From a virus (Duplodnaviria > Caudoviricetes), in the IMG/VR virus record IMGVR_UViG_3300010366_000022, positions 1 to 39,446 of that record: a stretch of 39,446 bases of DNA; one strand, given 5' to 3'. The notes beneath the pieces are model-generated. The model was not told the DNA's origin, made no database searches, and saw only the letters and a program-made list of their open reading frames with translations. The stretch's first letter is position 1; each line of letters starts with the position of its first letter. The position numbers and the translations under genes were made by a program. Positions 1,457 through 16,906 of the stretch are shown here, piece after piece.

Positions 1457-1675
1457 TCAGCCACGTACTCGGTGTCGCCGCCAGCCGTTGCCGATGTAGG
1501 TGGTACCGCATCCCTGACACACGTACTCGGCGACGACCTCGCATCCCGGCGGCAGCGGGTTTGGGTCATTGACGGTGGTGACGATGCGGCCGCAGCGCAG
1601 CCCGAACAGGCACGGCCACACGCGTCGGCGGGCGAGCCAGTTCAGCTCAGTAGACACGCGATTCGAACTCGACAT
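1457..1675 (-). CDS. hypothetical protein in compositional island
   Basis: 72 aa ORF with YVCQGCG; AG/CT-rich unlike the rest of the genome. Confidence 0.4.
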   Translation of the reverse strand: MSSSNRVSTELNWLARRRVWPCLFGLRCGRIVTTVNDPNPLPPGCEVVAEYVCQGCGTTYIGNGWRRHRVRG

Positions 1676-1747
1676 TCAGCCGCTCCTGCAAGCGCCCGAC
1701 ACTGCACGCTTGCCACCCTCATCGCCGCCTTCGGCATGTCCACGACC

Positions 1748-2104
1748 CTACAACGGTTGCGCTTCCCGCCACAATGTGGCCCATTGTTGCGGTGTCAGGC
1801 AGGCACGCCACACACCGCCACGTAGACGCACGAACGCAGTGGCGAACAACGCGTCCGCCCGTTCGCGTTGGTGTTCGGCGTCCAACGGTTTTTGCCGCAC
1901 GGCGCGTAGTGCGTCCGACCAATTGGCCACTTGCACCACCGTGTTGGGCACACCGGTGATGTCACCCATGTCGTCGGCACGCCCGGCACCGAACGCACGC
2001 CGGATGCCCAACAACCCCAATTCGGACGCGATGATGCGTTCGATCTCCAATTCGGCGCGGTCGCCTTTGCGTTTGGACGCACCCGTCACGGCAACCGCCG
2101 CCAC
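1748..2104 (-). CDS. Holliday junction resolvase-like PD-(D/E)XK nuclease
   Basis: SKRKGDRAELE...DMGDITG..VVQV pattern of phage Hjc-type resolvases. Confidence 0.75.
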   Translation of the reverse strand: MAAVAVTGASKRKGDRAELEIERIIASELGLLGIRRAFGAGRADDMGDITGVPNTVVQVANWSDALRAVRQKPLDAEHQRERADALFATAFVRLRGGVWRACLTPQQWATLWREAQPL

Positions 2105-2436
2105 CGGATCGTGACCACACCGGCGGTCGTCATGTGCAACCGCTCCGCCATTTGCGTGGACAAATCAAACCGGCGTCCGGGCACATACGGCCCGGTGTCG
2201 GCCCGGCGTCCCCATACGCACCGCCGGTGCCAGCAAAACCGAATGCGCATCCCACACGGCACCGACCGGCTAGCGAACGTGTGCGCGCCCAACCGATGCA
2301 ACCCGTTCCCGCACCATCCCAATTCGCCCCCGTAGAACGACGCCACCGCGTGGTGCCAATGCCGAACCGCCGACGACGCCACGGTCACCAACGTGGCCGC
2401 GATCGTGGTCACGAACATGACGACGGCGCGGATCAT
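2086..2436 (-). CDS. RlpA-like double-psi beta-barrel protein with signal peptide
   Basis: Hydrophobic N-terminus; ASFYG...ASRSVPCG...DTGPYVPGRRFDLS motifs of the RlpA/DPBB family. Confidence 0.8.
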   Translation of the reverse strand: MIRAVVMFVTTIAATLVTVASSAVRHWHHAVASFYGGELGWCGNGLHRLGAHTFASRSVPCGMRIRFCWHRRCVWGRRADTGPYVPGRRFDLSTQMAERLHMTTAGVVTIRWRRLP

Positions 2437-2642
2437 TCGAACCCCAATTGCCCGGCGGCGACACCTTTGCGTTCCCGTTCAACGCATGGCGTACACGCCC
2501 ACCGTTGTTGCGGCCGTCGCAACGCCAACGCGTGTAACCCGCCTTCGTCGCGCGGTTGTTCCCACCCGTGGACGAATCGCCACGTGCGCATGTGATCCGG
2601 GTCCAACCATTCGTTGCAGAAATAACAGCGGACGATTTTCAT
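2433..2642 (-). CDS. hypothetical zinc-finger protein
   Basis: CYFC...CTPC; GGGGAGG RBS; overlaps next start. Confidence 0.65.
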   Translation of the reverse strand: MKIVRCYFCNEWLDPDHMRTWRFVHGWEQPRDEGGLHALALRRPQQRWACTPCVERERKGVAAGQLGFE

Positions 2643-2653
2643 GGGTGACCTCC

Positions 2654-2899
2654 CTAGAAGTCGAGGCCGTCGTCACGTTCGACCTCATCGTGTTGGTGGC
2701 AGGTGATGGATTGGCACACGCCGTCCCCAATCGGGCCGTCGATCACGATGTGGCGTTTGTACGCCGCCGCGATCCGTTTGGCGCGACGGGCGCATTCGTC
2801 ACACATGCGCACCCGTGGGCGTAGCGGGCGCCCGACGTCGAACACGTCGTACAACGGTTGCGAATCGCGGCAGACCGTCTCACCGTCCTGCCAACTCAT
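2654..2899 (-). CDS. hypothetical protein
   Basis: ATG at 2899 overlapping upstream stop; CDEC and C-x3-C motifs. Confidence 0.6.
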   Translation of the reverse strand: MSWQDGETVCRDSQPLYDVFDVGRPLRPRVRMCDECARRAKRIAAAYKRHIVIDGPIGDGVCQSITCHQHDEVERDDGLDF

Positions 2900-3024
2900 C
2901 GCCCGTCCCTCCGCTTGCGCCATTCTCTGAGGTCGGTAACGACCATGTATCCGATAAGCGGGACGGCCACGAAGAAGACCACGACCGTCATGGCAATCCC
3001 GAAAACAAGGTCAGCCATCATCAT
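2896..3024 (-). CDS. small membrane protein
   Basis: MMMADLVFGIAMTVVVFFVAVPLIGYMVV single hydrophobic segment; coupled start/stop. Confidence 0.55.
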   Translation of the reverse strand: MMMADLVFGIAMTVVVFFVAVPLIGYMVVTDLREWRKRRDGR

Positions 3025-3152
3025 TCCCGCGGTTCCCATCCCGTGGCGCGCCGTTGATGCCGCGTCCACCACCACGACGCCACCGTAAACGTAACCGGAG
3101 TCAACGCAATCCCGCACACGACGCCCAACACGTACGACCACCACGTGATCAC
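3021..3152 (-). CDS. small membrane protein (43 aa, not in ORF track)
   Basis: GTG overlapping the glycosyltransferase stop; MITWWSYVLGVVCGIALTPVTFTVASWWW... Confidence 0.5.
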   Translation of the reverse strand: MITWWSYVLGVVCGIALTPVTFTVASWWWTRHQRRATGWEPRE

Positions 3153-4453
3153 ACCATTTCCAATTGTTGCGGCGCCGGTTCCGGTTCCACCAAATCGATG
3201 CCGTCACAACGCAACCGGTGACGGTACGGCGTCCACGGAACTCGTGGCCCACCCCAACCCATCGCTTTGGTCAGCGCGGCCTTAGACGGGCGCACATGCG
3301 CCCGCGCCATGCGACGCAACCGTTCGTACGTGGGCGTGACCGTGGCCACGGGAATGGCGGCAATCGCACGGTCGAACATGGCGTTGATGGGTTTGATCAT
3401 GTCCACCCACGCGTACCGGCGCGCCACCCCGCGGGCGATGTCTTCGATCGCCCATTCGTTGCGATTGTCCACCACCGATTCGATCAACCGGCCCATGTCG
3501 GCGTCGTCGTCGTACAACCACGGGTACGCCGGACCGACCATTTCCGGGTAGCACAACCGGTTCGGCAACACGTACGGCACACCCACCGACAACCCGTCCA
3601 TGACCGCCACCGACCACGCCGAATAGGTACGAAACGCGCCCACTCCCACGTTCGCGCGCGACAGTTCCCGTAGGTAGTCGTCACGGGTGGTGGCATGAAT
3701 GCGCGTGGCCCACGGCGCGTCCACGTTGGTCAACGTGAACGCCACCCGGAAATCGTGGCGCCGTTTCCACATGGAATCGAACATCTGGCACGCGGCCGGA
3801 AACCCGGTGTAGGAATTCGCACGGTGGTTGAACACCACCAACCCGTGTTCCATCGGTTCGGGCACGATCGTCAACGGATCGACACCCAAATGCTGCACCG
3901 ACAACCGCGTGGCCAACGACGCCACCAACGGCGGCGCCACCACGTGCGACGCGCGGTCGATGACCAAATCCCGCAACCACGTGGAGTTGACCCCACATTC
4001 GCGCATGGCCAAAATCCCGTGCAAATTGGCGGGCAACATCGTCTCCGCGTACGCGGAGTTCTCGGCCACTTCGAACCAATGCGCGTATCCGACGATCACC
4101 GGCCGTTCGTTGGTGGCGTTGGCGAACACGTTGGCGATTTGCAGCGTGTGTTCGGGTAGATGCGACCACACGACGTCGTACGACCGCGCCCGCCAATCGA
4201 TCGCACGCACGAACGTGGGCGCATCGAACGACGTGCGCATGGTGTTGGGATAACGTGGCAACGGGTAGTGGACGTGGCGAACGTTGGGAAACCGCAGCGA
4301 CCGCACCGGTTCCGGCAGCAACATGGTGAATTCCAAATCGTCGCGCACGGCGTTCAACGCCCGGATCATCGACCGCACCGCCACCACGTACGAATCGGCA
4401 CCCAAATCGCGCCCGTACGTGATGTTCGGATACACCAAAACTTGGTAGGTCAC
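3149..4453 (-). CDS. GT-B fold glycosyltransferase (possible DNA modification)
   Basis: 434 aa; DVVWSHLPEH, VVFNHR, WSVAVMDGLSVGVPYVLPNRLCYPEMVG resemble GT4-type C-terminal nucleotide-sugar binding region; coupled to Mom-like gene. Confidence 0.8.
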   Translation of the reverse strand: MTYQVLVYPNITYGRDLGADSYVVAVRSMIRALNAVRDDLEFTMLLPEPVRSLRFPNVRHVHYPLPRYPNTMRTSFDAPTFVRAIDWRARSYDVVWSHLPEHTLQIANVFANATNERPVIVGYAHWFEVAENSAYAETMLPANLHGILAMRECGVNSTWLRDLVIDRASHVVAPPLVASLATRLSVQHLGVDPLTIVPEPMEHGLVVFNHRANSYTGFPAACQMFDSMWKRRHDFRVAFTLTNVDAPWATRIHATTRDDYLRELSRANVGVGAFRTYSAWSVAVMDGLSVGVPYVLPNRLCYPEMVGPAYPWLYDDDADMGRLIESVVDNRNEWAIEDIARGVARRYAWVDMIKPINAMFDRAIAAIPVATVTPTYERLRRMARAHVRPSKAALTKAMGWGGPRVPWTPYRHRLRCDGIDLVEPEPAPQQLEMV

Positions 4454-5322
4454 GCGTCACCGCGTTTCGGATACGGCTTCGTATGTGGCGCCAACGCTTT
4501 GATGATCGCACGCCGTGAACGCCGATCACCGATGGGCAACACGTAACAATGTTTCCGGGTGTTCATGTCCGCCACTTTCACTAGTTCATGCCCGCGTTCC
4601 GCAACCAACCGGAACGCCTCGTTGCTTTGTGTCCCGACCCACGCTACCAAACTGCGGGGATGGAACGGTCGGCCGTCCAATAGGTAGCCGGGGCGCGCAT
4701 CGGACACGCCCACGTACACGGCGTTGACTGCTTGATAGATGCCGCCGTGATGCCCGGCGCCCGTGTCGGCGTACGAAAACACCCACGCGATCCCGGTGGC
4801 CGCGACCACCCGGTTCGCCGCCGCCACCAACCGCGAAGTGGTGAACCGCGGCGCCGACGGATGCACCGCCACGCGCGCGATTTCGATGTTGCCCGGCCAC
4901 GCGGTCAACCCGTATTTCTTCGCCACACCGTGCGCGTTGGTGGGTTGGGCGTACACGACCACGCCTACCATGTCGGGCGCGAACGCGGCGATGCGGTGGC
5001 ACGCGCCCGCGGGCATCCCGCCCAAATAGTGGTACCGGCCGATCCATTGTTCGGCGGTGTAGTGGGACACATCCCGCAACACCCACGGGCGGGCAAAATC
5101 GGGGTCGTCCAACGCGAACAACGCCCCATCCGGCGGTGACACCGGGACGACGACCGGTTCGGGCACCGGTGCCACCACCACCGGGACGTCCCCGTCCCAC
5201 AACGGCATTTGCTCATAGCGGGCCGATGGAATCGAACCATCACCTCGGGACGTGGCACGCCCGTGTGCTGACCACTTACACCCGGCCCGCCCGCAAATGG
5301 GGACCGATTCCGCGCACCGCAC
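4450..5322 (-). CDS. mom: Mom-family (GNAT-fold) DNA adenine modification protein; start 5322 (GTG) or 5208 (ATG)
   Basis: RYHYLG, EIARV, SYADTGAGHHGGIYQAVN.VYVG and terminal PYPK motifs typical of Mom-like proteins. Confidence 0.85.
   Translation of the reverse strand: MRCAESVPICGRAGCKWSAHGRATSRGDGSIPSARYEQMPLWDGDVPVVVAPVPEPVVVPVSPPDGALFALDDPDFARPWVLRDVSHYTAEQWIGRYHYLGGMPAGACHRIAAFAPDMVGVVVYAQPTNAHGVAKKYGLTAWPGNIEIARVAVHPSAPRFTTSRLVAAANRVVAATGIAWVFSYADTGAGHHGGIYQAVNAVYVGVSDARPGYLLDGRPFHPRSLVAWVGTQSNEAFRLVAERGHELVKVADMNTRKHCYVLPIGDRRSRRAIIKALAPHTKPYPKRGDA
5217..5290 (-). tRNA. atypical tRNA-Gly(GCC)-like element, CCA not encoded
   Basis: GCGGGCC GG GTGT AAGTGGTCA GCAC A CGGGC GTGCCAC GTCCC GAGGT GATGG TTCGATT CCATC GGCCCGC T: 7-bp acceptor, D-arm with GG, GCC anticodon, perfect T-arm, U73. 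Confidence 0.8.
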
Positions 5323-6495: not shown

Positions 6496-6535
6496 ACTAA
6501 CGGGGTTGGCGGTTTCGTGCCGCCGCCCCGTTAGT
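6496..6535 (-). terminator. strong hairpin after RHH gene
   Basis: ACTAACGGGG...CCCCGTTAGT outer stem with inner GGCGG/CCGCC; no U-tract on minus strand. Confidence 0.4.
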
Positions 6536-6546
6536 CGTTTTTGCCG

Positions 6547-6855
6547 CTAGTTGCGGACCAAACGTCGGGTCAGGATCACCCGTAGTTGGTCGCGGCGCGA
6601 ATGCCGGTACTCCGCCGCCCGGTGCCACAACGCCCGGTCGATGTCCGCGGGCACGCGCATGAACAACTGTCCGTTGCCGGGCGGGTCGTCGGATGGGGTG
6701 CGGTTGTGGCCCAACCGGGCCTCCAACCCGAATTCGTCTGCTAGTTCCGTGACCACCACGTTTTTGACCGACGTGCGATTGGCGCGGGCACGTTCGATCA
6801 ACGCCCGTTTGACCGTCGGGCCGATGGCGAAATTCCAAACCGGGTCACCCATCAT
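6547..6855 (-). CDS. tandem ribbon-helix-helix (Arc-like) DNA-binding protein
   Basis: Two beta-helix-helix-like units: WNFAIGPTVKRALIERARANRTSVKNVV and LFMRVPADIDRALWHRAAEYRHSRRDQL. Confidence 0.6.
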   Translation of the reverse strand: MMGDPVWNFAIGPTVKRALIERARANRTSVKNVVVTELADEFGLEARLGHNRTPSDDPPGNGQLFMRVPADIDRALWHRAAEYRHSRRDQLRVILTRRLVRN

Positions 6856-9089: not shown

Positions 9090-9246
9090 GGTTTTCCTCC
9101 TGTGGCTCGTGGTGGCAGTCGGTGACGTCATCATCATCGTCCGTGGATCGGTCGTCACACGGCCCGCCCATGTCGGGCGGGCCGTGTTCGGAACGGGCGT
9201 GGTAGTCCGCAATTGCCCGTTCGGATGCGTGTTCGGGGTCGGTCAC
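9076..9246 (-). CDS. small acidic hypothetical protein
   Basis: GTGA overlap with upstream stop; fills gap to ERF. Confidence 0.45.
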   Translation of the reverse strand: MTDPEHASERAIADYHARSEHGPPDMGGPCDDRSTDDDDDVTDCHHEPQEENHADA

Positions 9247-11957: not shown

Positions 11958-12031
11958 CGGACGTTCCGCCGGACCCACCCCCGCGCCCCACGTGGAGGAG
12001 GGGATTTGAGGTGGGTCCGGCGCAACGCCCG
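11958..12031 (-). ncRNA. intergenic hairpin, family B copy 1
   Basis: 24-position stem CGGGCGTTGCGCCGGACCCACCTC / GGGGTGGGTCCGGCGGAACGTCCG with G-U pairs and one G.G mismatch. Confidence 0.65.
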
Positions 12032-12050
12032 TGTGGGGGTTGCGCGGCGA

Positions 12051-12743
12051 TCACGTCCAATCGTGGTCGTCAGCGTCGGACGGAACACCCTGCGCCGCGG
12101 CCAACGCATCCCGCACCGATTCGTAATGTGCGACGGCGTTTTCCTGGTCGCGGATTTCCGCGTTGATGCGATCGCGTGACGCGTCCGTGCGAGCACGGGC
12201 CAACTTCGCCTGCGTCGCCTTGACGGTCGATTTGGCGTTGCGGACGTCGTCGTCCGCGGTGCCGATCAACGAATTGCGTGCGGCGAACGATGCCCGCATT
12301 TTCAATTGGGGAATCGCCCACATGTCCGAAATACGCCCGGACACGATGTCATCGGCCGCTTCCGCAATTTGTCGTTCCACGAGGTTGGACGTTTCGGAAG
12401 TCGAATGTGACCGGAGGCCGGACGACACCCAACCCCGCAACACCGATTCAACGTGGCGAACGATGTCCACCGCCGAGGCCTGTTCCGCGTCCTCGTCGGC
12501 GGGGTCCAATTCGGATTGGACCATGATGGCCACCCGCGTTCGGGTTTCGGCGGCAACCAATTTGCCCTGATCCCATCCGAACCGATACGCGAACGGCCCT
12601 TGATTCGACCATCCGTTGGTGTCGTCCACTTCGTCCTTGAATTCGTCCCACGCGTGTCGGCCGTCCATCGCCCAATGTACGACGAGTTGCACCAACAGCG
12701 CGCGTAGTTCCCGTTCGTATGCGATGTCGTACGGTGATGCCAT
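12051..12743 (-). CDS. hypothetical protein with C-terminal coiled coil
   Basis: ACCACCAACCGAAAGGGG leader before ATG. Confidence 0.8.
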   Translation of the reverse strand: MASPYDIAYERELRALLVQLVVHWAMDGRHAWDEFKDEVDDTNGWSNQGPFAYRFGWDQGKLVAAETRTRVAIMVQSELDPADEDAEQASAVDIVRHVESVLRGWVSSGLRSHSTSETSNLVERQIAEAADDIVSGRISDMWAIPQLKMRASFAARNSLIGTADDDVRNAKSTVKATQAKLARARTDASRDRINAEIRDQENAVAHYESVRDALAAAQGVPSDADDHDWT

Positions 12744-12783
12744 TGTGAATCCCCTTTCGGTTGGTGGTTTGGGTGCTATCCAA

Positions 12784-12844
12784 AACGGACGCCCCGCGGA
12801 ACCCACCCCGGTGGGTGTGAGGTGGATTCCGCGCGGCGCCCGTT
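12784..12844 (-). ncRNA. intergenic hairpin, family B copy 2
   Basis: AACGGGCGCCGCGCGGAATCCACCTC / GGGGTGGGTTCCGCGGGGCGTCCGTT; compensatory changes relative to copy 1. Confidence 0.65.
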
Positions 12845-12896
12845 AGGGTTCCGCGCGATCCCCGCGGCCGTGATCCTTGACGGCGGGGAAACTAGG

Positions 12897-13904
12897 TCAT
12901 CGATCCCACGTGTACGCCCGCGGTTTGACGACCAACGGTTGGTCGTCCGGGCCTTTCACGTAGGGACTGATCCATATTTGTCGATGAACACCCGCGGACG
13001 GGAACCATTGGTTGCGCCAATGACCTCCGACAATCCACCGATGCGTCCATTCGACGGTGTGGCCGGACGATTCGATCGTGTCGGATCGTTCCCGGCGCAA
13101 CCGCACGACCAACGTTTCCCGATGGGGGAAGTTGATACGCGCGGCGGCACGTCGGTCACCGCGATCCGGCGGCGTGGTGTGACGGACGGCCACCCGTTGT
13201 TGCATCAACCGCAACGACGTTTGGACGATCCGCCACCACCATTCGGCGCCGGTGGGCCGTCCGATTTCGTCCCATTGGTTGCCGTCGAACGCCATGCCGA
13301 AAAACCACGGCGTGATGTGGATGGGGACGACCGTGGGGCGAACACCCCAATGGTCGGCCCATTCGGGGAACCCGCCCACATCGGCGTCGGTGGCCGCGTA
13401 CAACGTCAACGCGACCCCTTGGCCGATGCGACCTTCGCCGCGCCGCCAATTGTCCAACACGCGGTCGTACTCACCGTCCACGGCTTCGACGTCGGTGCGG
13501 GTGAACATCGGCACCCACGAAAACGCGGCGATGTTGACCGGGTCATCGAACCGGTCCAACACCGGGAACGGTTCCGCGAAGTACACGAACCCGTTGTCGG
13601 TCATCAAATCGGTGCCCAACAACGGTTCCGGAGCGAACGACGATTTGGCCGCGGCCACCAATTCGCACATGTCCGCGGACACATAGATGGGGTCGGCCGT
13701 GCGCACCTTGTCGGTTTCGACGGCGTACAACATCCGGGTCATTTCGACCGTGTCCGGGTTCATGCGTTTGGTTTCCATGTCCATCCGTGCGGCCAACCAT
13801 CGTTGCCCGGCGGTGGTGGCGTGTTGCCACCGCCACTGCTCCATTTGCACGGACATGGCGTCACGCCACCCGTGTCGTGATTGGGGACTGTTGGTGCGGT
13901 CCAT
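12897..13904 (-). CDS. hypothetical protein (HRWxVxGHWR...PYVKGP C-terminal motif)
   Basis: Long ORF with leader motif/RBS; C-terminal motif recurs in uncharacterised phage proteins. Confidence 0.8.
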   Translation of the reverse strand: MDRTNSPQSRHGWRDAMSVQMEQWRWQHATTAGQRWLAARMDMETKRMNPDTVEMTRMLYAVETDKVRTADPIYVSADMCELVAAAKSSFAPEPLLGTDLMTDNGFVYFAEPFPVLDRFDDPVNIAAFSWVPMFTRTDVEAVDGEYDRVLDNWRRGEGRIGQGVALTLYAATDADVGGFPEWADHWGVRPTVVPIHITPWFFGMAFDGNQWDEIGRPTGAEWWWRIVQTSLRLMQQRVAVRHTTPPDRGDRRAAARINFPHRETLVVRLRRERSDTIESSGHTVEWTHRWIVGGHWRNQWFPSAGVHRQIWISPYVKGPDDQPLVVKPRAYTWDR

Positions 13905-13948
13905 GACCGCCCCCTTTCGGTTGGTGGTTCGGTTGGTGGTGCAAACGT

Positions 13949-14000
13949 GCAAGCACCGTGACGGGCACCGGTAACCCGATGCCCGCGGACGGTGACCTAC
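13949..14000 (-). ncRNA. intergenic hairpin, family A copy 1
   Basis: CACCGT-CC-GCGGGCATCGG-GTTA-CCGGTGCCCGT-C-ACGGTG. Confidence 0.65.
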
Positions 14001-14221
14001 CCGTTGGTGACGTCCTCCACGGTGACCTTGAACCGTCGGCCGTCGATTTCGACCGACCAAAACGCGGTCGTGTCGGACTGGTCATCGCCACCGTGAAACA
14101 TGACGCCGTTGGCGTCAACGACGGCGGACAAACATCCGTTGTGGCCGAACGCCGCGGCGTCGAACACGGGACGGGTGAAATCGTGCAACTGATCCGCAAC
14201 GGTTTTGGCGGATGTGAACAT
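13997..14221 (-). CDS. hypothetical early protein (74 aa)
   Basis: ACCAACCGAAAGGGGATTCAC-ATG leader. Confidence 0.8.
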   Translation of the reverse strand: MFTSAKTVADQLHDFTRPVFDAAAFGHNGCLSAVVDANGVMFHGGDDQSDTTAFWSVEIDGRRFKVTVEDVTNG

Positions 14222-14252
14222 GTGAATCCCCTTTCGGTTGGTGGTGGTGCAA

Positions 14253-14301
14253 AACGCACCGTGACGCACCCGCCGGGTGGCGGGTGCGCGGACGCTACGT
14301 T
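14253..14301 (-). ncRNA. intergenic hairpin, family A copy 2
   Basis: AACGTAGCGT-CC-GCGCACCCGCC-ACCC-GGCGGGTGCGT-C-ACGGTGCGTT. Confidence 0.7.
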
Positions 14302-14537
14302 CAAAACCCAGTGGGGTCGTGGCCATCCGGTTGGCATACCGGGCACCATTCGTTCGGCACCGGCGCGAACATGGTGGCGTCCCGGCGGGTCATGTGCGAA
14401 CACACGCCGCCGTGATCGACGCACACGGTGAACCAACCGTTGGGGTCGCCGCAATCGAACGACCCGTCGCGGTTGTCCACGATTTGGACGGTGGTGCCGG
14501 TAATGCGTGATCGGTGTTCGGAAACTACGCGGGACAT
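14301..14537 (-). CDS. hypothetical Cys/His early protein (78 aa)
   Basis: WFTVCVDHG...WCPVC; AAAGGAA RBS. Confidence 0.8.
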   Translation of the reverse strand: MSRVVSEHRSRITGTTVQIVDNRDGSFDCGDPNGWFTVCVDHGGVCSHMTRRDATMFAPVPNEWCPVCQPDGHDPTGF

Positions 14538-14548
14538 GGTTGGTTCCT

Positions 14549-14596
14549 TTCGGTTGGTGGTTCGGTTGGTGGTTCGGTTGGTGGTTCGGTTGGTGG
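14549..14596. repeat. tandem repeat (TTCGGTTGGTGG)x4; x2 at 13916-13939
   Basis: Direct reading; expansion of the leader motif. Confidence 0.95.
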
Positions 14597-14601
14597 TGGT
14601 G

Positions 14602-14653
14602 CGAACGCACCGTGAGCCGCACCCGTGTTGGATGCGGCCGGACGCTACGTTCG
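14602..14653 (-). ncRNA. intergenic hairpin, family A copy 3
   Basis: CGAACGTAGCGT-CC-GGCCGCATCC-AACAC-GGGTGCGGCT-C-ACGGTGCGTTCG. Confidence 0.7.
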
Positions 14654-14860
14654 GCGCCGGTCGGCGGCATCCGCGCACCGCGCACAACGGCGCGCGTACG
14701 ACGAATGCACCGCACGATCAAATCCCGACGGCGCCCACCGCCCGCATTCGAGCGGGAAGTCGCCGTTGGTCACATCGGTCGGCCGGACGCCGACAACCGC
14801 CAAATGCGAACGGGCGGTGCCGTTCCAACTAACCCAAACGTTGGTGGTGATGGTGGTCAT
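14645..14860 (-). CDS. hypothetical early protein (71 aa)
   Basis: AAAGGAA RBS; CG...CARC. Confidence 0.75.
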   Translation of the reverse strand: MTTITTNVWVSWNGTARSHLAVVGVRPTDVTNGDFPLECGRWAPSGFDRAVHSSYARRCARCADAADRRRT

Positions 14861-14880
14861 GTCGTTCCTTTCGGTTGGTT

Positions 14881-14933
14881 GTGGACGTTCCATGAGGCGC
14901 CCCGTTGCCGAGGCGCCCGGATGCAACGTTCAC
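14881..14933 (-). ncRNA. intergenic hairpin, family A copy 4
   Basis: ACGTTGCAT-CC-GGGCGCCTCG-GCAA-CGGGGCGCCT-C-ATGGAACGT. Confidence 0.7.
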
Positions 14934-14940
14934 GCGTTGA

Positions 14941-15153
14941 TCACGCGGTGTGGCCGATTTCCCACACGTAGCGTGCCGGGCGGGTCATGTGCCGGACTTC
15001 GGCAACCGCCGCGGCGAACGACTCCACGCCGATCGTCAACGACCGACCGTTGGTGGCGTCGAACATGCCGTCCGCGTATTCGCGGACGACCCAACCCGGC
15101 GTCGAAAGCCGGGTCGTGCGGATCACGGGATTGGTGGGGGTCGAATCGGTCAT
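14941..15153 (-). CDS. hypothetical early protein (70 aa)
   Basis: ACCACCAACCGAAAGGATTGAC-ATG leader. Confidence 0.8.
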   Translation of the reverse strand: MTDSTPTNPVIRTTRLSTPGWVVREYADGMFDATNGRSLTIGVESFAAAVAEVRHMTRPARYVWEIGHTA

Positions 15154-15174
15154 GTCAATCCTTTCGGTTGGTGG

Positions 15175-15229
15175 TGCGTTTCGGCCGTGCCCGGCCATCA
15201 TCGGGTGGGTGGCATCAACCCACGACGCA
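15175..15229 (-). ncRNA. type III hammerhead ribozyme (variant core)
   Basis: TGCG-TC | GTGGGT TGATGCC ACCCAC | CCGATGA T | GGCCG GGCA CGGCC | GAAA CGCA: three perfect stems, GUC cleavage triplet. Confidence 0.85.
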
Positions 15230-15550
15230 AAAACGATGACGTCACCGACCGCACGATCACGAACCGTTAGTGCGACGCGCCATCACGACGCGTCCACCTA
15301 GTCGGGTGCCACCGATGGGGCGTGGCCGCGGACACACACGCGGCCGGTCACCATCGCGGGGGCGGGATCGCGTTGGCGCGGGGGGTGCATCGGCCGGGTT
15401 CGCGCGGGAGTCCACCCGCCGCCCCCGGTGATCCCCACGTTGCCGGGAACCGCCACCGGATCGATGTCTACGCGATACACGAAACACGCTGCAACATCAA
15501 TCGGACATACACAAATTTACATGAATACGGCCACGGTCGTTGCCTATGCG

Positions 15551-15566
15551 TGACCTATATGGGTCA
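15551..15566. promoter_or_regulatory. imperfect palindrome in AT-rich putative early promoter region
   Basis: TGACCTATATGGGTCA; overlaps a minus-strand TTGACC hexamer. Confidence 0.4.
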
Positions 15567-15583
15567 ACCCCATTTCGGAATTT

Positions 15584-15604
15584 CCCGCTATTTGCGGGTT
15601 TTTT
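15584..15604 (+). terminator. possible intrinsic terminator
   Basis: CCCGC-TATTT-GCGGG-TTTTTT. Confidence 0.4.
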
Positions 15605-16628: not shown

Positions 16629-16873
16629 CCGGCCCGCACCGCATCCGCATCGCCCGATCCCTAACTGCGGAACGGGCGATGGATTTGCTCCGACAACACG
16701 GATGGATTCGCGTTGACGTCGATTCGTGGGCGGCGACGTGGAACCCGGCGTCAACGAAACGGGACCTGTTCGGTCCCATGACGATCGACTACGTGTTGCA
16801 CGACGACGGCGGCGTCCATGCCACCGTCATCGAAATCGGCCCAACCTCCCCGTCGGGGGTCCGGCTCACCTAA
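16625..16873 (+). CDS. hypothetical protein (82 aa)
   Basis: ATGA overlap with upstream gene. Confidence 0.7.
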   Translation: MTGPHRIRIARSLTAERAMDLLRQHGWIRVDVDSWAATWNPASTKRDLFGPMTIDYVLHDDGGVHATVIEIGPTSPSGVRLT

Positions 16874-16878
16874 ACCGA

Positions 16879-16906
16879 CGGGGCGGCGCCCGTAGACGCC
16901 GCCCCG
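16879..16906. terminator. 10-bp hairpin between convergent operons
   Basis: CGGGGCGGCG-CCCGTAGA-CGCCGCCCCG. Confidence 0.55.

What the first reader, a model, noticed from the sequence alone, without database searches (positions are those of the whole stretch)
15175..15229. Type III hammerhead ribozyme at the head of the early gene array
Seen (minus): UGCG-UC / stem I GUGGGU-[UGAUGCC]-ACCCAC / core CCGAUGA+U / stem II GGCCG-[GGCA]-CGGCC / GAAA-CGCA closing stem III. All three stems are perfect. Predicted cleavage is after GUC (C at 15224), about 70 nt upstream of the first early ATG (15153), and stem III runs straight into the ACCACCAACCGAAAGG leader. Established: the consensus core is CUGANGA...GAAA...NUH. 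A loop 1 starting with UG plus a tetraloop 2 ending in A matches the tertiary contact of fast natural hammerheads, and an extra base after A9 occurs in some viroid/satellite hammerheads. The U4>C core substitution is non-canonical. Inference: self-cleavage gives the early mRNA a defined 5'-OH, hairpin-protected end and releases the upstream leader RNA.
Basis: partly seen in the sequence, partly recalled or inferred. Interest (0 to 1): 0.8.

Follow-up and report, generated by a model that had tools for sequence, protein, structure and literature searches.

The report
Variant-core phage hammerhead heads early genes
A soil phage carries a complete hammerhead motif (an RNA shape predicted to cut itself) just before its first predicted early gene; its unusual core spelling recurs intact in dozens of other viral sequences and is missed by the standard RNA-family library, so it is likely a working variant that trims the phage message.

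Summary
Confirmed: a type III hammerhead at 15229-15175 (minus), core CCGAUGA+U, predicted cut 70 nt before ATG 15153, in a 39-kb soil myovirus. Two other runs carry it unchanged. Rfam misses it, but a model built without it scores 66.9 bits. The C4 core is a selected natural variant: 60 of 95 viral C4 sites are complete hammerheads, against 0 of 50 with A4/G4; most also carry an extra base after A9. Loops 1 and 2 can pair (UGCC/GGCA), and this pairing covaries across relatives. The next six genes have long mismatched hairpins, resembling RNase III sites, in the same slot. Best reading (0.65): it cuts the early message into end-protected pieces. Cleavage is untested, and U4C lowers activity in published scaffolds. 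Phage hammerheads before genes are known since 2011. This scan already noted the hammerhead/RNase III-hairpin swap and phage U4C cores on other DNA. New variant of a known kind; interest 0.42.

The parts
15175..15229 (-). Type III hammerhead motif; core CCGAUGA + extra U; predicted cut between C15224 and G15223
   Evidence: sequence, fold, descriptor and shuffles, leave-out model 66.9 bits
15197..15204 (-). Variant core: C3 C4 G5 A6 U7 G8 A9 U9a (C4 at 15203, extra U at 15197)
   Evidence: recurrence and A4/G4 control
15188..15214 (-). Predicted loop 1 / loop 2 contact: UGCC (15214-15211) complementary to GGCA (15191-15188)
   Evidence: compensatory forms UACC/GGUA, UGCU/AGCA, UCC/GGA, GCG/CGC in relatives
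15230..15247 (-). Weak 5-bp hairpin plus U run abutting stem III; would cap the 3' end of the upstream product (or act as a weak terminator)
   Evidence: such sites are at chance level in the region: 5 found, 6.8 expected; abutting hairpins in 17 of 36 type III lineages
15159..15174 (-). A/C-rich leader CCAACCGAAAGG with Shine-Dalgarno-like AAAGGA, 5 nt before the ATG; six exact copies, one before each of six early genes (12753, 13913, 14230, 14546, 14867, 15160)
   Evidence: 6 found, 0.28 expected
14941..15153 (-). First predicted early gene, 70 aa, no family above cut-off
14881..14933 (-). Long mismatched hairpin E2 (21 bp) before gene 14860; RNase III-site-like (inferred)
   Evidence: z -3.9; shared core
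14603..14652 (-). Hairpin E3 before gene 14537
   Evidence: z -4.6
14252..14302 (-). Hairpin E4 before gene 14221
   Evidence: z -5.1
13944..14005 (-). Hairpin E5 before gene 13904
   Evidence: z -5.4
12784..12844 (-). Hairpin E6 (25 bp, one G.G mismatch) before gene 12743
   Evidence: z -6.3
11958..12031 (-). Hairpin E7 (one G.G mismatch) before the DUF932 gene 11896
   Evidence: z -5.8; DUF932
15451..15600 (.). AT-richer island, candidate early promoter region; the only TANNNT on the minus strand between 15200 and 16200 is at 15519-15514
   Evidence: no sigma-70 consensus site found, so the start site is a guess

Best explanation
This is a type III hammerhead motif with a variant core (C at position 4, extra U after A9) that likely self-cleaves at 15224/15223 and so likely trims the phage's early message 70 nt before its first gene. 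Shown: the anatomy, its recurrence as a complete motif in other viral contigs, loop-loop complementarity, and position before a ribosome-binding site. Inferred steps: (1) host polymerase starts in the AT-rich island near 15500 and reads into the early array; (2) stems I-III fold and loops 1 and 2 dock through UGCC/GGCA, which would offset the weaker C4 core; (3) cleavage leaves a downstream mRNA that begins with 5'-OH directly on the stem I hairpin, and an upstream piece ending in a hairpin and a cyclic phosphate; (4) the six long hairpins at the next junctions would be cut by host RNase III, as in the T7 early mRNA, so that each small gene gets its own end-protected message behind the same CCAACCGAAAGG leader. 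The ribozyme does at junction 1 without host protein what the hairpins would do at junctions 2-7.
For: Complete anatomy; 12 of 4136 shuffles do as well; leave-out model 66.9 bits. C4 control: 60 of 95 unique C4 site contexts in IMG/VR form complete hammerheads, 0 of 50 with A4/G4 (p 4e-16). C4 occurs in types I, II and III (30, 1 and 33 unique sequences; 13, 1 and 13 clusters at 80%) and beside U4 copies in one phage (L017, L285, L327, L335, L537). Loop 1/loop 2 Watson-Crick runs of 3 bp or more in 35 of 70 loop pairs against 15.8 when permuted, and 19 of 34 against 8.8 at one per cluster (p 0.0002); loops were not part of the selection. SD-like motif plus start codon within 60 nt in 103 of 129 phage hammerheads against 624 of 2580 random positions. 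A hairpin abuts the 5' side in 17 of 36 type III lineages (4.4 expected) but 1 of 44 type I (criterion set). Slot sharing: DUF932 is preceded by hairpin E7 here, by a C4+U9a hammerhead in L512 and by type II hammerheads in 6 of 71 other loci. Print: prophage hammerhead arrays cleave in vitro and in E. coli, and a halovirus early transcript's 5' end maps within 3 nt of a hammerhead cut (PMC3088659 sections 6, 11).
Against: No cleavage data. U4C 'considerably decreases activity in vitro' in a viroid (PMC3088659); in a type III scaffold all single CUGA mutants had low activity with no rescue by a second substitution except the C3-G8 swap (PMC9901934 passages; insertions were not in that library). 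An Aedes cCgauga candidate was made for testing and Aedes examples stand among the inactive ones, though the figure text is too scrambled to match them for certain. The viroid extra A slightly lowers the rate (PMC3376415). Flanks compete with the fold: 4.1 kcal/mol against a median of 2.3 among 82 type III homologues, and 1-7 depending on the ends chosen. No orthologous junction could be compared: 0 of 42 loci around relatives of gene 13904 hold a convincing hammerhead, nor do 7 of those whole records. For DUF932, 55 of 71 loci have neither element. The RNase III reading rests on shape alone; the E2-E5 core was found in no other fetched locus.
Confidence: 0.65

Rival explanations
1. Slowed or conditional cutter: the C4 core and competing folds make cleavage partial or signal-dependent, so the element tunes early expression (cut against uncut message, or with the upstream hairpin-U run as an attenuator).
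For: U4C slows published hammerheads. GUCAUCG (15240-15234) can pair with the core CGAUGAU, and CGGUCGGUG with the leader (folds). A terminator-like site abuts stem III.
Against: Predicted openness of the SD did not rise consistently on cleavage (0.18-0.83 uncut, 0.67-0.72 cut). Terminator-like sites are at chance level. C4 copies sit in the same positions as U4 copies within single phages.
Confidence: 0.13
2. The purpose is to release the roughly 280-nt upstream leader as a small RNA with a defined, hairpin-capped 3' end.
For: Long GC-rich stretch between the AT island and the ribozyme with no recognisable gene (two short ORFs without Pfam match); hairpin next to the cut.
Against: No Rfam family; pieces no more stable than shuffles (z +0.7 and -0.25); no similar DNA in 50,697 phage records; type III hammerheads elsewhere follow coding genes directly (L304).
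Confidence: 0.08
3. Decayed or inactive relic.
For: Two departures from the consensus core; no Rfam hit; not conserved in distant relatives.
Against: All three stems perfect, loop contact intact, the same double variant in many lineages, and A4/G4 never complete.
Confidence: 0.07
4. Cleavage destabilises the downstream message, as glmS cleavage does, to shut the first genes off quickly.
For: glmS cleavage lowers expression (PMC6765202 passage); that RNase J degrades such a 5'-OH product is recalled, not tested.
Against: The 3' product starts with a paired G in stem I; strong repeated ribosome-binding leaders point to high expression.
Confidence: 0.07

Closest known systems
Hammerheads flanking genes in phages and prophages (Perreault et al. 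2011, PMC3088659; sections 6, 7, 8 and part 1 of 11 read, plus supplement searches), including the HF1/HF2 halovirus ribozyme before the first early ORF
   Same: Intergenic, just before a start codon in an early region; proposed to process polycistronic mRNA; loop-loop pseudoknots described in about 40% of hammerheads.
   Different: That paper says cores match the consensus almost without exception and knows U4C from a viroid; here C4, mostly with an extra U after A9, recurs in many viral contigs. One ribozyme only, followed by six long hairpins.
Rfam RF00008 Hammerhead_3 (viroid and satellite type III; CChMVd loop motif, PMC2632901 passages)
   Same: Topology, GUC site, C3-G8, G5, A6, A9, G12-A14, A15.1-U16.1, G10.1-C11.1; loop 1 fits UNmYN (UGAUGCC; CChMVd(+) has UGACGUC) and loop 2 fits RNnA.
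   Different: C4; extra U; 4-bp loop complementarity. The model finds 4 of 6 U4 type III phage copies, all below its gathering score, and 0 of 8 C4 copies or the window.
RNase III processing signals of the phage T7 early mRNA (R1.1; PMC8708148 passages, PMC1540722 abstract)
   Same: Long mismatched hairpins between early genes, with an internal loop under a 10-11 bp upper stem (E2-E5).
   Different: No cleavage shown; proximal and distal box rules not tested; host likely an actinobacterium; first junction uses a ribozyme.
RiboJ-type ribozyme insulators of synthetic biology (recalled, no call)
   Same: Type III hammerhead in front of a ribosome-binding site, removing the variable 5' leader.
   Different: Natural, variant core, untested.

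Membership tests
Hammerhead ribozyme, type III | Three stems around the core, stem III open | tested here: met
   6, 5 and 4 bp plus A15.1-U16.1; minimum-energy fold
Hammerhead ribozyme, type III | C3, G5, A6, G8, A9, G12, A13, A14, A15.1-U16.1, NUH site | tested here: met
   sequence, (GUC)
Hammerhead ribozyme, type III | U4 of the consensus CUGA turn, and no insertion after A9 | tested here: not met
   C at 15203, extra U at 15197. U4C is in print as a viroid variant and recurs in complete phage motifs; filed as a variant, not as a consensus member
Hammerhead ribozyme, type III | Tertiary contact between loops 1 and 2 | tested here: met
   Sequence level only: UNmYN/RNnA motifs and covarying UGCC/GGCA
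Hammerhead ribozyme, type III | Site-specific self-cleavage giving 2',3'-cyclic phosphate and 5'-OH | not testable with these tools
   needs a cleavage assay or RNA end mapping
Rfam RF00008 | Score at or above the gathering threshold of 48.5 bits | tested here: not met
   no hit at E<=10; U4 phage copies also fall below it
RNase III processing signal (hairpins E2-E7) | About two helical turns of mismatched double strand between genes | tested here: met
   20-26 bp, z -3.9 to -6.3
RNase III processing signal (hairpins E2-E7) | Proximal and distal box sequence rules of the host enzyme | not tested
   rules known for E. coli (abstract only); host unknown
RNase III processing signal (hairpins E2-E7) | Cleavage by RNase III | not testable with these tools
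   needs enzyme assay or rnc mutant

The most novel reading that the evidence does not exclude
Phages use a distinct hammerhead subclass, core CCGAUGAU, in which the extra U after A9 and a Watson-Crick loop kiss restore full speed to a U4C core that is crippling in textbook scaffolds: a substitution-plus-insertion rescue that substitution scans could not see and Rfam misses, used here as a host-independent stand-in for RNase III sites in one early operon.
Probability: 0.3. Interest if true: 0.62.

Novelty: new variant of a known kind. Interest (0 to 1): 0.42.

Why it matters
The role of phage hammerheads is stated as open in reviews (PMC6155905, PMC6765202 passages). This locus offers one operon in which a ribozyme and six enzyme-type hairpins share a slot behind identical leaders, so swaps are easy to test in a reporter. 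The C4(+U9a) core shows that a position treated as fixed varies in nature in a specific way, that Rfam undercounts phage ribozymes, and gives a two-by-two experiment (C4/U4, with and without U9a) on the best-studied RNA catalyst. It is not a new class of RNA, and the scan has met both themes before.

Tried and rejected
Rfam at gathering and E-value thresholds: no hammerhead and no family for E2-E7 beyond sub-threshold miRNA hairpin hits. No similar DNA in annotated phages. Close relatives not found by DUF932 or baseplate single-protein scans, by the leader motif (88 loci, generic actinophage-like leaders; L166 shows a type I hammerhead before the same leader, seen by eye), or by gene 13904 relatives (42 loci). 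No RNA holder listed, so no test of expression or ends. Cleavage-activated translation: no stable signal. First test for an upstream hairpin (z<=-2) was not significant, 10 of 36 against 5 of 44, p 0.085 (the script then crashed); the sharper adjacency test was chosen afterwards. Stem covariation (97% of cells paired) is circular because the sequences were picked for their stems, so it is not counted as evidence. Circular RNA or retrozyme: rejected, only one hammerhead in the genome. E2-E5 as a new ribozyme: no conserved loops or pseudoknot seen. Promoter not pinned down. The original viroid U4C paper is not held; it is cited only through PMC3088659.

Full report
Setting. The window is one 39,446-base virus record, 64% GC, with terminase, portal, capsid, tail sheath, baseplate, HNH, Erf-like and RusA-like genes, all on the minus strand: a myovirus. 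It is held in soil metagenomes. The host is likely an actinobacterium: the top capsid matches are actinophages at only 30-32% identity and one relative of gene 13904 is named from a Gaiellaceae genome. 'Early' is inferred from gene size and from the position ahead of the recombination genes.

Observation. The 55-mer folds into the hammerhead junction, with ordinary stability. A descriptor with position 4 left free gives a match this good in 12 of 4136 shuffled windows. Rfam does not find it. A model from 38 other type III hammerheads with an extra base after A9, window excluded, finds it at 66.9 bits. Contigs from two other studies cover it without a difference.

Is the C4 core decay? A viral scan that left position 4 free (131 loci from 21 of 64 parts) gave 129 unique complete hammerheads: 115 U4, 14 C4, none A4 or G4; 12 of the 14 C4 but 20 of the 115 U4 carry an extra base after A9 (lineages are not independent). 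A matched pair of scans then tested C4 (125 loci, 41 of 64 parts) against A4/G4 (61 loci, whole collection): 60 of 95 unique C4 contexts are complete hammerheads, 0 of 50 A4/G4 contexts are. Among 53 unique C4 motifs, 40 have the extra base and 13 do not, so the insertion is favoured but not required. C4 motifs also appear in 7 of 121 bacterial genome loci (two are Oscillospiraceae genomes) and 12 of 31 metagenome loci, one of them the window's own record. L304 has three C4+U9a copies of two topologies. Rfam found 4 of 6 U4 type III copies, all below threshold, and 0 of 8 C4 copies in ten loci; the two U4 misses both carry the extra U.

Loop contact. They are also complementary over 4 bp. Across 70 unique loop pairs of other type III motifs (loops over 12 nt dropped), 35 have 3 bp or more against 15.8 in permutations; at one per 80% cluster 19 of 34 against 8.8; among C4 motifs 14 of 24 against 8.2 (p 0.009), though 4-bp runs are not significant there (3 against 1.5). 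Compensatory forms include UACC/GGUA, UGCU/AGCA, UCC/GGA and GCG/CGC. Since loops were not selected, this is independent evidence of selection on the active fold. All four pairs may need the closing pair of stem II to open (inference).

Surroundings. Six early genes start behind an exact CCAACCGAAAGG leader and the seventh behind a variant. Before the first leader stands the hammerhead; before the next six stand hairpins of 20-26 bp with z -3.9 to -6.3. E2-E5 share a small asymmetric internal loop under a 10-11 bp stem whose sequence varies while pairing is kept; five of the six have a G.G mismatch. Their shape recalls T7 R1.1, whose cleavage matures and protects T7 mRNAs (PMC8708148 passages). 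U-less terminators or protein-binding stems are not excluded. Other strong hairpins exist elsewhere in the genome. Slot sharing is seen for one gene family: DUF932 follows hairpin E7 here, a C4+U9a hammerhead in L512, and type II hammerheads in 6 of 71 further upstream regions (80 loci, 9 dropped as duplicates or too short); 10 have a long hairpin, some unconvincing, and 55 neither. Across phage hammerheads an SD-like motif and start codon follow within 60 nt in 103 of 129 (control 624 of 2580). Type III motifs, whose upstream product keeps no ribozyme hairpin, have a hairpin abutting stem III in 17 of 36 lineages; type I motifs, whose upstream product keeps two, in 1 of 44. That test was chosen after a first one gave p 0.085. 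The window has a weak example.

Mechanism. Best reading (0.65): constitutive self-cleavage gives the first early mRNA a 5'-OH end on a hairpin and caps the upstream piece, while RNase III would cut the later junctions. Shown: anatomy, recurrence, loop covariation, position. Inferred: transcription start, cleavage, RNase III action, stabilisation (resistance of paired 5'-OH ends to RNase E and J is recalled). Against: U4C is slow in published scaffolds, the viroid extra base lowers the rate a little, an Aedes C4 candidate may be among inactive examples, flanks compete with the fold more than in three quarters of homologues, and no orthologous junction was available. Rivals: tuned or conditional cleavage 0.13, release of a leader RNA 0.08, relic 0.07, destabilisation 0.07.

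Novelty. Phage hammerheads before genes, loop pseudoknots, U4C and an extra core base are each in print (PMC3088659; PMC3376415). A search for 'hammerhead' with 'U4C' returned only that paper; searches listed none describing a widespread phage C4(+U9a) form or a hammerhead/RNase III swap, but the library lacks most subscription papers and Dataset S1 was cut. PMC5737381, PMC13725137 and PMC10085705 were read as passages only and add context, not this variant. Earlier notes of this scan report the swap on several other genomes and phage U4C cores; I had both readings before those look-ups, and they are not independent support. Verdict: real, likely active, a new variant of a known kind; interest 0.42.

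Noticed in passing
window 11958-14933 (-): Six long mismatched hairpins before successive early genes; E2-E5 share a core found in no other of 681 fetched loci.
   Followed up: partly
window 15584-15604; L602:2286-2303: An 18-nt hairpin motif, terminator-like on the plus strand, is identical in a distant phage (DUF932 56% identity), where it lies just before a promoter-like TTTACA-17-CATACT; may mark the early control region.
   Followed up: partly
window 14546-14600 (-): The leader unit ACCACCAACCGA is tandemly repeated about four times before gene 14537 and twice before gene 13904; run X1's contigs break here and two runs differ at 14577.
   Followed up: no
window 12897-13904 (-): 335-aa protein without Pfam match, 401 relatives mostly from metagenomes, with a conserved basic C-terminal part.
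   Followed up: partly
L304 (G007) 1660-3914: Three C4+U9a hammerheads of types III, III and II in one phage, suggesting core sharing across topologies.
   Followed up: no
L017, L285, L327, L335, L537: U4 and C4 copies side by side in one phage; several U4 copies have C at position 7, and C4 with C7 was seen only twice, a possible link between positions 4 and 7; my patterns fixed U7, so untested.
   Followed up: no
window 4450-5322 (-): Mom-like DNA modification gene (phrog_1384).
   Followed up: no
window 9157-9226, 6497-6566, 16837-16906 (-): Further strong hairpins near gene boundaries outside the early array.
   Followed up: no
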